Source: Callorhinchus milii
Lineage: Eukaryota
DNA: 64,000 nucleotides
Reading direction: 5' to 3'
Assembly: GCF_018977255.1 (NCBI RefSeq)
Contig: NW_024704759.1
Span: 11,532,001-11,596,000, forward strand
Positions 6,401 through 6,845 of the stretch are shown here, in pieces. The first letter of the stretch is position 1, and each line of letters starts with the position of its first letter. The position numbers were made by a program, and so were the translations under genes. The notes under the pieces are model-generated. The model ran no database searches, was not told where the DNA came from, and saw nothing but the letters and a program-made list of their open reading frames with translations.

Positions 6401-6845
6401 GGGGAGGGGGAAGAAGATAGAACAGCATTGATGGTTGGTCTTCAGGAACATCAGATACTAGATAAAGGCAATGATATGGGACTATTTTATATAGTGCCCC
6501 TCACACAGGGTTGTTGTGGTTGTTGTTGTACAGCTAATCACTGTATTCTGATTCCATCTGTACTGCACGTCTTTTCAGGGAAGGAAGGTTTGTGAACCAA
6601 CAACGAAGGCACGCAAACCGATTCACTTTGAGTACAAGGACTGCGTCAGCGCGAAAACGTTCACACCCACTTACTGTGGTTCGTGCTCAGACAGCCGCTG
6701 TTGCACTCCACACAGGACCAGAACAGAACTGCTGGAGTTCAAGTGCAAGCGTGGCAGGGTTGTGAAACAGCGCATGATGTTCATCATCACCTGTGCCTGT
6801 CATCATAACTGTCCATCTGTTTCCAAGGAAGTGTACGCAGTCTAG
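407..6845 (+). CDS. CCN5: CCN family member 5 (WISP2), 5 coding exons, ~336 aa, four-domain form
   Basis: Exons: 407-469 (signal peptide MKVFGGGESLLSFAVLCFACQ), 3004-3220 (IGFBP-like), 4143-4391 (VWC: FQPNCKYHCWCSDGGIGCIPRC...PGKCCPEWIC), 5712-5926 (TSP1: WSSCSRSCGLGVSTRVSN), 6579-6845 (cystine knot, ends in TAG). All introns GT-AG with compatible phases; total 1011 nt. Exon 1 resembles the CCN5 signal peptide, and the gene lies next to ADA as CCN5 does in human. Confidence 0.88.
555..3996. other. Assembly gaps (N runs) interleaved with (TG)n/(TA)n-rich low-complexity sequence in CCN5 introns 1-2
   Basis: Multiple N runs flanked by TGTGTC/TATA-type simple repeats. Confidence 0.95.
5552..5680 (+). 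mobile_element. Deu-domain SINE, 3' fragment
   Basis: GCTGTGCGCAATTGGTTGCC...CTTTGAGACGTCTCGGAGATGTAAAAAGGCGCTGTAT matches the other copies in the window. Confidence 0.75.

What the first reader, a model, noticed from the sequence alone, without database searches (positions are those of the whole stretch)
6579..6845. CCN5/WISP2 retains an intact cystine-knot (CT) exon
Seen: a fifth exon not listed in the ORF track, with a good acceptor (CTTTTCAG) and in phase with exon 4. It encodes GRKVCEPTTKARKPIHFEYKDCVSAKTFTPTYCGSCSDSRCCTPHRTRTELLEFKCKRGRVVKQRMMFIITCACHHNCPSVSKEVYAV, with all 10 CCN CT cysteines. Established: mammalian CCN5 is the CCN member lacking the CT domain. Inference: this is the ancestral four-domain CCN5, whose basic CT could bind heparin and dimerise. 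I recall four-domain CCN5 also occurring in teleosts, so novelty may be limited.
Basis: partly seen in the sequence, partly recalled or inferred. Interest (0 to 1): 0.7.

Follow-up and report, generated by a model that had tools for sequence, protein, structure and literature searches.

The report
Chimaera CCN5 keeps ancestral cystine knot
This is a real, spliced last exon of the elephant-shark CCN5 gene that encodes the cystine-knot module missing from mammalian CCN5; the same state is already published for zebrafish, and related proteins suggest the module was likely trimmed in amphibians and lost only in reptiles, birds and mammals.

Summary
Confirmed, but largely known. Exon 6579-6845 is in phase with exon 4, has 10 cysteines spaced as in CCN2 and is spliced 5926^6579 in contigs of 3 of 4 runs laid, from two studies. 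The 336-aa protein is identical to a RefSeq protein of Callorhinchus milii. It groups with CCN5 at 100/100, grouping with CCN2 is rejected, it lies beside adenosine deaminase, and a separate CCN2 exists in the genome. RefSeq already models the exon: version 1 was named WISP2, version 2 is misnamed CCN2. Fernando 2010 reported the knot in zebrafish WISP2. Added here: a knot is present in 8 of 8 cartilaginous-fish proteins and in coelacanth; 22 of 23 amphibian CCN5 proteins carry an 8-cysteine version that Pfam misses; 0 of 65 amniote proteins have one. I did not find this stepwise pattern in print. Heparin binding and dimerisation are untested; the module is basic but lacks the KKGKK and DGR motifs. 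The scan's earlier notes held nothing on CCN5.

The parts
407..469 (+). CCN5 exon 1, coding part (ATG, likely signal peptide; phase-0 donor)
   Evidence: matches residues 1-21 of P0001. Not checked in RNA.
3004..3220 (+). exon 2, IGFBP-like module, degenerate: 10 Cys instead of 12
   Evidence: its last 30 nt are joined to exon 3 in an X2 contig (table 7)
4143..4391 (+). exon 3, VWC module and start of hinge
   Evidence: Pfam VWC 4.2e-9; joint 4391^5712 in X1, X2, X4
5712..5926 (+). exon 4, hinge and TSP1 module
   Evidence: Pfam TSP1_CCN 6.4e-17
5927..6578 (+). intron 4, GT..AG, 652 nt; read-through stop TAA at 5954-5956
6579..6845 (+). exon 5 coding part: CT cystine-knot module, 88 aa, 10 Cys, plus stop
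6846..8242 (+). 3' untranslated part of exon 5; AATAAA at 8220-8225
   Evidence: one 2158-nt X2 contig runs from exon 2 through exons 3, 4, 5 to 8242; X1 contigs end at 8241 (same study, so only a weak hint of the end); signal position
23824..24033 (+). exon of the neighbouring adenosine deaminase gene (synteny marker)
   Evidence: Pfam A_deaminase 3.9e-8; ADA adjacency of WISP2 in zebrafish, human and mouse per PMC3133677

Best explanation
The stretch is the spliced fifth exon of the chimaera CCN5 (WISP2) gene and encodes a ten-cysteine module predicted to fold as a cystine knot, likely the ancestral state that amniotes later lost. Shown: exon structure, splicing, orthology, cysteine pattern, distribution among related proteins. 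Predicted: the knot fold. Inferred from CCN2 work: the protein is secreted, is cut in the hinge, and releases a TSP1-CT half that docks on heparan sulfate through its basic surface (net +10). It would then act more like a CCN2/CCN3-type ligand than like mammalian CCN5, which has TSP1 alone and antagonises CCN2. Confidence is about 0.97 for identity and splicing, about 0.9 for ancestral state, about 0.5 for the CCN2-like mode of action.
For: Splice joint in 3 of 4 runs laid, two studies. Domains 1-3 tree, 53 rows: window protein inside a 26-row CCN5 clade at 100/100 that follows the species tree; AU test rejects grouping with four CCN2 rows, p 6e-51. Own genome holds 9 CT exons; the seven other loci placed in the tree fall with CCN1 (two), CCN2, CCN2b-like, CCN3, CCN4 and CCN6. 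CT-only tree keeps this CT with other CCN5 CTs; grouping with CCN2 rejected, p 0.0006. ADA is adjacent. AF2 pLDDT 78-97 over the CT, Foldseek hits VWF CTCK, sclerostin and Norrin. Net charge +10, in the range of its paralogues, +6 to +13. Fusing the CCN2 CT to CCN5 made it CCN2-like, as reviewed in PMC4579636.
Against: No functional data for any fish CCN5 were seen. The KKGKK stretch before Cys1 reads MGRKV, the DGR loop reads DSR, and the tail after Cys10 is 10 aa against 20 in CCN2 (motif roles from PMC10326224). The IGFBP module has lost two Cys. The CT tree has only 79 columns: the CCN5-versus-rest split is 92/83, and one teleost CCN5 CT (Electrophorus, long branch) fell with CCN2. The runs are only guessed to be RNA and are contigs, so rare CT-less transcripts cannot be excluded. 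Foldseek E-values for the knot hits are modest (3e-3 to 6e-2).
Confidence: 0.88

Rival explanations
1. The exon is ancestral and expressed, but the knot is already functionally weakened, so fish CCN5 acts as a weak agonist or antagonist and the later loss only finished the process.
For: KKGKK is replaced in all 10 fish and coelacanth CCN5-clade rows scored and DGR in 9 of those 10; tails after Cys10 are 0-10 aa in chondrichthyans and coelacanth. CCN3 has a full CT yet its TSP1 domain inhibits CCN2 like that of CCN5 (PMC9860493 abstract).
Against: All ten Cys and their spacing are kept, net charge equals that of paralogues, and the CT is 72% identical to a ray orthologue, which implies constraint.
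Confidence: 0.35
2. The gene also makes a CT-less isoform by intron-4 read-through or an alternative last exon, foreshadowing the amniote form.
For: An in-frame stop lies 9 codons into intron 4 and AATAAA at 6273; a 279-aa CT-less isoform X2 is annotated for the skate Amblyraja; one low-depth intronic contig in X1.
Against: No listed contig runs from exon 4 into intron 4, and depth at 6055-6348 is at most 0.32 against 19-147 on the exons. Contigs drop rare forms, so this is weak.
Confidence: 0.15
3. The gene is CCN2 or another four-domain paralogue, as the current NCBI name says.
For: NCBI name 'CCN family member 2' for P0001 and CCN2-like or CCN3-like for shark and ray relatives.
Against: a separate CCN2 locus on contig C3; ADA synteny; version 1 of the same accession was named WISP2 and the Amblyraja relative is named CCN5.
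Confidence: 0.01
4. CCN5 lost the CT early and this lineage regained one by exon shuffling or gene conversion from a paralogue.
For: The CT-only tree is weakly resolved; CCN3 CTs are the nearest outside group.
Against: CT present in cartilaginous fish, ray-finned fish, coelacanth and amphibians and these CTs cluster together; regain would need several parallel events.
Confidence: 0.03

Closest known systems
Zebrafish WISP2/ccn5 (zWISP2-c23; Fernando et al. 2010, PMC3133677, passages read)
   Same: CCN5 orthologue next to ADA that keeps the C-terminal cysteine knot; Hu et al. 2019 Table 1 gives its CT at 265-334 (PMC6610741).
   Different: This one is from a cartilaginous fish, outside bony vertebrates, so it helps polarise the change; its IGFBP module lacks two Cys.
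RefSeq XP_007909774.1/.2 (Callorhinchus milii)
   Same: Version 2 is 100% identical over 336 aa and version 1 is 335 of 336; both include the CT exon.
   Different: Only the name: WISP2 in version 1, CCN family member 2 in version 2, which the trees reject.
Mammalian CCN5/WISP2
   Same: Orthologue by domains 1-3; same first four modules or exons.
   Different: Mammalian CCN5 lacks the CT exon (PMC4579636 passages; 0 of 27 proteins) and acts through TSP1 alone as a CCN2 antagonist (PMC9860493 abstract).
CCN2/CTGF CT domain
   Same: Same ten-Cys spacing, basic charge, predicted knot fold.
   Different: No KKGKK, DSR for DGR, shorter tail; separate gene in this genome.
Amphibian CCN5 (frogs, salamanders, caecilians)
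   Same: Keeps a C-terminal module homologous to this exon.
   Different: Eight Cys: one of the adjacent pair and Cys10 are gone in 22 of 22; lower charge, +2 to +8; missed by Pfam in 5 of 5 tested.

Membership tests
CCN family | Order signal peptide-IGFBP-VWC-TSP1-CT, one module per exon | tested here: met
   the IGFBP hit is weak (17 bits, below the cut-off of 28); signal peptide judged by eye and by the AF2 helix 9-22 only
CCN family | 38 conserved Cys (12+10+6+10) | tested here: not met
   Mature part has 10+10+6+10 = 36; two Cys of the IGFBP GCGCC motif are missing. The total of 38 includes two signal-peptide Cys.
CCN CT (cystine-knot) module | Ten Cys with CCN spacing, six forming the knot | tested here: met
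   disulfide scheme from PMC10326224 passages; fold predicted; bonds not observed directly
CCN CT (cystine-knot) module | KKGKK before Cys1 and DGR loop, as in CCN1-3 | tested here: not met
   MGRKV and DSR; motif description in PMC10326224 section 14
CCN CT (cystine-knot) module | Heparin or HSPG binding and homodimer formation | not testable with these tools
   Needs recombinant protein; net charge +10 is compatible only
CCN5/WISP2 orthology group | Domains 1-3 group with named CCN5 proteins | tested here: met
   100/100; AU against CCN2 p 6e-51
CCN5/WISP2 orthology group | Adjacent to ADA | tested here: met
   criterion from PMC3133677
CCN5 as defined in mammals | Absence of the CT module | tested here: not met
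   CT present and spliced; this feature holds only for amniotes among the proteins examined
CCN2/CTGF | Groups with named CCN2 proteins | tested here: not met
   the genome's CCN2 is at C3:29.66 Mb

The most novel reading that the evidence does not exclude
CCN5 lost its cystine knot in steps, and this exon marks the starting point. Jawed-vertebrate CCN5 had a full ten-cysteine knot. The amphibian lineage, or the tetrapod ancestor, deleted exactly the fifth disulfide (the CCN2 C292-C329 pair, which includes the cysteine proposed for dimer linkage) and kept a folded eight-cysteine knot that domain databases miss. Amniotes then dropped the module, reptiles and birds apparently keeping a six-residue stub of the exon. 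The anti-CCN2, anti-fibrotic CCN5 would thus be an amniote invention, and chimaera, axolotl and mouse CCN5 would form a natural series for testing what the knot does.
Probability: 0.6. Interest if true: 0.5.

Novelty: new member of a known kind. Interest (0 to 1): 0.3.

Why it matters
The finding itself is modest: the exon is already in RefSeq and a knot-bearing CCN5 is published for zebrafish. It matters in two ways. First, many fish CCN5 genes are misnamed CCN2 or CCN3 in databases, likely because they have four domains, and one evolutionary paper states that all vertebrate CCN5s lack the CT although its own table lists one for zebrafish. Second, placing the loss at the amniote base, with a cryptic reduced knot in amphibians, gives natural variants for asking whether the knot is what turns a CCN protein from antagonist to agonist, and warns that fish and amphibian CCN5 may not model the mammalian protein.

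Tried and rejected
first exon guess was one base off at exons 2 and 4 and gave stops; corrected. RNA evidence for exon 1 and most of exon 2 was not obtained, so the IGFBP deletion rests on the window and two RefSeq versions. The look-up of sequencing runs listed no holder on record as RNA; the runs are guessed RNA. X5 gave no cover of the coding exons, which says nothing. CT homodimer prediction: no answer, scores 0.21 and 0.01 against a mark of 0.32, alignment not used; no evidence either way. Sequence search of the PDB found only CCN3 VWC and TSP1 structures and no CCN CT. A compensated frameshift in exon 2 was considered; the other two frames do not restore the GCGCC motif. The 458-aa bird hits are CCN2 with long N-termini, not four-domain CCN5. 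'fish' hits in PMC9860493 were a supplier name. Paper searches for a shark or amphibian CCN5 knot or for amniote-specific loss gave no such paper in their listings. Subscription journals are not covered and no supplements were read, which may bear on the novelty claim. No other vertebrate genomes were searchable, so the amniote loss is judged from predicted proteins only. The scan's own notes held nothing on CCN5.

Full report
Observation. With exons 407-469, 3004-3220, 4143-4391, 5712-5926 and 6579-6845, all introns are GT..AG, phases are 0,1,1,0, and the frame is 336 aa. Pfam finds Cys_knot in exon 5 (2.7e-11), TSP1_CCN in exon 4, VWC in exon 3 and a weak IGFBP hit in exon 2 (17 bits, below cut-off). 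The ten Cys have the spacing of CCN2. The read-through stop is TAA at 5954-5956.

Splicing. Of 14 runs listed I laid 4. Contigs of X1, X2 and X4, from two studies, join 4391^5712 and 5926^6579 at GT..AG; X5 did not cover the coding exons. One 2158-nt X2 contig runs from the end of exon 2 through exons 3, 4 and 5 to 8242, just past AATAAA at 8220. No listed contig runs from exon 4 into intron 4. The tool only guesses these runs are RNA and they are contigs, so rare isoforms and expression level cannot be judged. Exon 1 and most of exon 2 were not checked in RNA.

Identity. The protein is 100% identical to P0001, named 'CCN family member 2 [Callorhinchus milii]'. [quoted passage not shown] So the exon is already annotated. 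The genome holds 9 CT-like exons. A tree of domains 1-3 (53 rows; two aberrant models, Heterocephalus CCN4 and Electrophorus CCN5, left out; midpoint root) places the window protein with five shark and ray proteins, inside a 26-row clade with coelacanth, amphibian, reptile, bird and mammal CCN5 at 100/100. The seven other own-genome loci included fall with CCN1 (two), CCN2, CCN2b-like, CCN3, CCN4 and CCN6; the ninth is a near-identical CCN4 copy left out. Forcing the window protein with four CCN2 rows is rejected, p-AU 6e-51. Downstream lie exons of adenosine deaminase, a PKI-family gene, a Serinc and a CRAL-TRIO gene; the names ADA, PKIG, SERINC3 and TTPAL and the human order are recalled. 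Fernando et al. used ADA adjacency to call zebrafish WISP2 (PMC3133677, passages).

Is the CT inherited? A CT-only tree (42 rows, 79 columns) holds the window CT in a 14-row set with other cartilaginous-fish and amphibian CCN5 tails (97/90). Eighteen CCN5 CTs are split from 24 other rows at 92/83. One teleost CCN5 CT on a long branch fell with CCN2, which counts against a clean result. Grouping the six chondrichthyan CTs with CCN2 is rejected, p 0.0006.

Distribution. I scored proteins with a CT profile built from 14 CCN tails, seven of which are also among the fish rows tested. Hits above 25 bits: cartilaginous fish 8 of 8 (all ten Cys; includes the window's own), ray-finned fish 9 of 10 (7 with ten Cys; three rows are unnamed representatives that I assigned by eye), coelacanth 1 of 1, amphibians 22 of 23, reptiles and birds 0 of 38, mammals 0 of 27. 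Rows are 90% cluster representatives, not species. From the 120 rows listed (of 153 found) I used 89 and dropped 22 CCN3-like teleost rows, 7 isoforms without TSP1 and 2 unnamed rows. All 22 amphibian tails have eight Cys: one of the adjacent pair and Cys10 are missing. In the CCN2 model these are C292 and C329, predicted to pair, with C292 also proposed for dimer linkage (PMC10326224, passages). Which Cys of the adjacent pair was deleted is formally ambiguous. Pfam missed the knot in 5 of 5 amphibian proteins scanned. An AF2 model of the axolotl protein gives the tail the same strand pattern at pLDDT 71-97 and Foldseek hits to VWF CTCK and sclerostin; the alignment included ten-Cys relatives. 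Many reptile and bird proteins end in a short basic tail resembling the first residues of this exon, while other models end like intron read-through. A spliced stub is my inference; it was not checked on DNA.

How it likely works. The AF2 model has pLDDT 78-97 over the CT, and Foldseek returns VWF CTCK, sclerostin and Norrin with E 3e-3 to 6e-2. Net charge from five residues before Cys1 to Cys10 is +10, against +6 to +13 for the genome's paralogues. By analogy with CCN2, which is cut in the hinge to release an active TSP1-CK fragment that is more potent as a dimer (PMC10326224, passages and section 14), this protein would release a basic TSP1-CT half that binds heparan sulfate. A CCN5-CT fusion behaved like CCN2 in cardiomyocytes, as reviewed in PMC4579636 (passages), whereas CCN5 TSP1 alone inhibits CCN2 (PMC9860493, abstract and passages). 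I put about 0.5 on a CCN2-like mode. Against it: KKGKK is replaced by MGRKV, DGR by DSR, and the tail is short. Binding and dimer formation are untested.

What is known. [quoted passage not shown] Hu et al. 2019 (PMC6610741; part 1 of 5, passages and the tables section read) write that all vertebrate CCN5s lack the CT, yet their Table 1 lists a CT for zebrafish and none for the 312-aa Xenopus protein; no shark was sampled. Nine searches (listings only, apart from the five papers named) showed no paper on a cartilaginous-fish or amphibian CCN5 knot. Subscription journals and supplements were not seen.

Verdict. A real, expressed, correctly interpreted exon; a new member of a known kind and already in RefSeq under a wrong name. 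Interest 0.3. The more interesting by-product is the three-state pattern of ten Cys in fish, eight in amphibians and none in amniotes (probability 0.6 as a whole, interest 0.5 if true).

Noticed in passing
window 3004-3220: The IGFBP module is degenerate: a short GGTCCC-type repeat adds four residues between Cys1 and Cys2, and an in-frame three-residue loss removes two Cys of the GCGCC motif. The five shark and ray relatives compared have all 12 Cys. Both RefSeq versions show it; not confirmed in RNA.
   Followed up: partly
P0020, P0021, P0204-P0223 (amphibian CCN5): A conserved eight-Cys cystine-knot-like tail that Pfam misses, in 22 of 23 amphibian proteins.
   Followed up: yes
P0224-P0251 (reptile and bird CCN5): Short basic C-terminal tails that look like the first codons of exon 5 followed by a stop; other models end like intron-4 read-through.
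   Followed up: partly
P0002, P0003, P0005, P0011, P0013, P0018 and cluster members: Four-domain CCN5 orthologues of sharks, rays, paddlefish, sturgeon and salmonids are mostly named CCN2-like or CCN3-like in NCBI.
   Followed up: yes
P0319: Amblyraja radiata CCN5 isoform X2 (279 aa) is an annotated CT-less form with a different ending after exon 4.
   Followed up: no
window 6664: C>T in the X1 and X2 contigs (one study) changes Thr to Ile at protein position 277; probably an allele.
   Followed up: partly
L016 and L017 (G000:C2, about 124.55 and 124.63 Mb): Two inverted CCN4 copies about 97-98% identical including introns, about 81 kb apart: recent duplication or assembly artefact.
   Followed up: partly
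L012 and L013 (G000:C10, C8): The genome holds a second CCN2-like and a second CCN1-like gene that group, with support 85/83 and 97/91, with teleost ccn2b and ccn1l1, suggesting these predate teleosts.
   Followed up: partly
L019-L020 (upstream of the window) and window 23824-52561: Upstream neighbours are a 7TM receptor, a G-patch protein and an Arf-like gene, not the KCNK15 recalled for human; CCN5 and the ADA exon lie on the same strand here. Downstream: PKI-family (-), Serinc (+) and CRAL-TRIO (-) genes.
   Followed up: partly
window 253-260: TATAAATA about 150 nt upstream of the ATG, a likely TATA box.
   Followed up: no
window 4980-5060 and 5550-5650: Short interspersed repeat copies in intron 3 with very high contig depth.
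   Followed up: no
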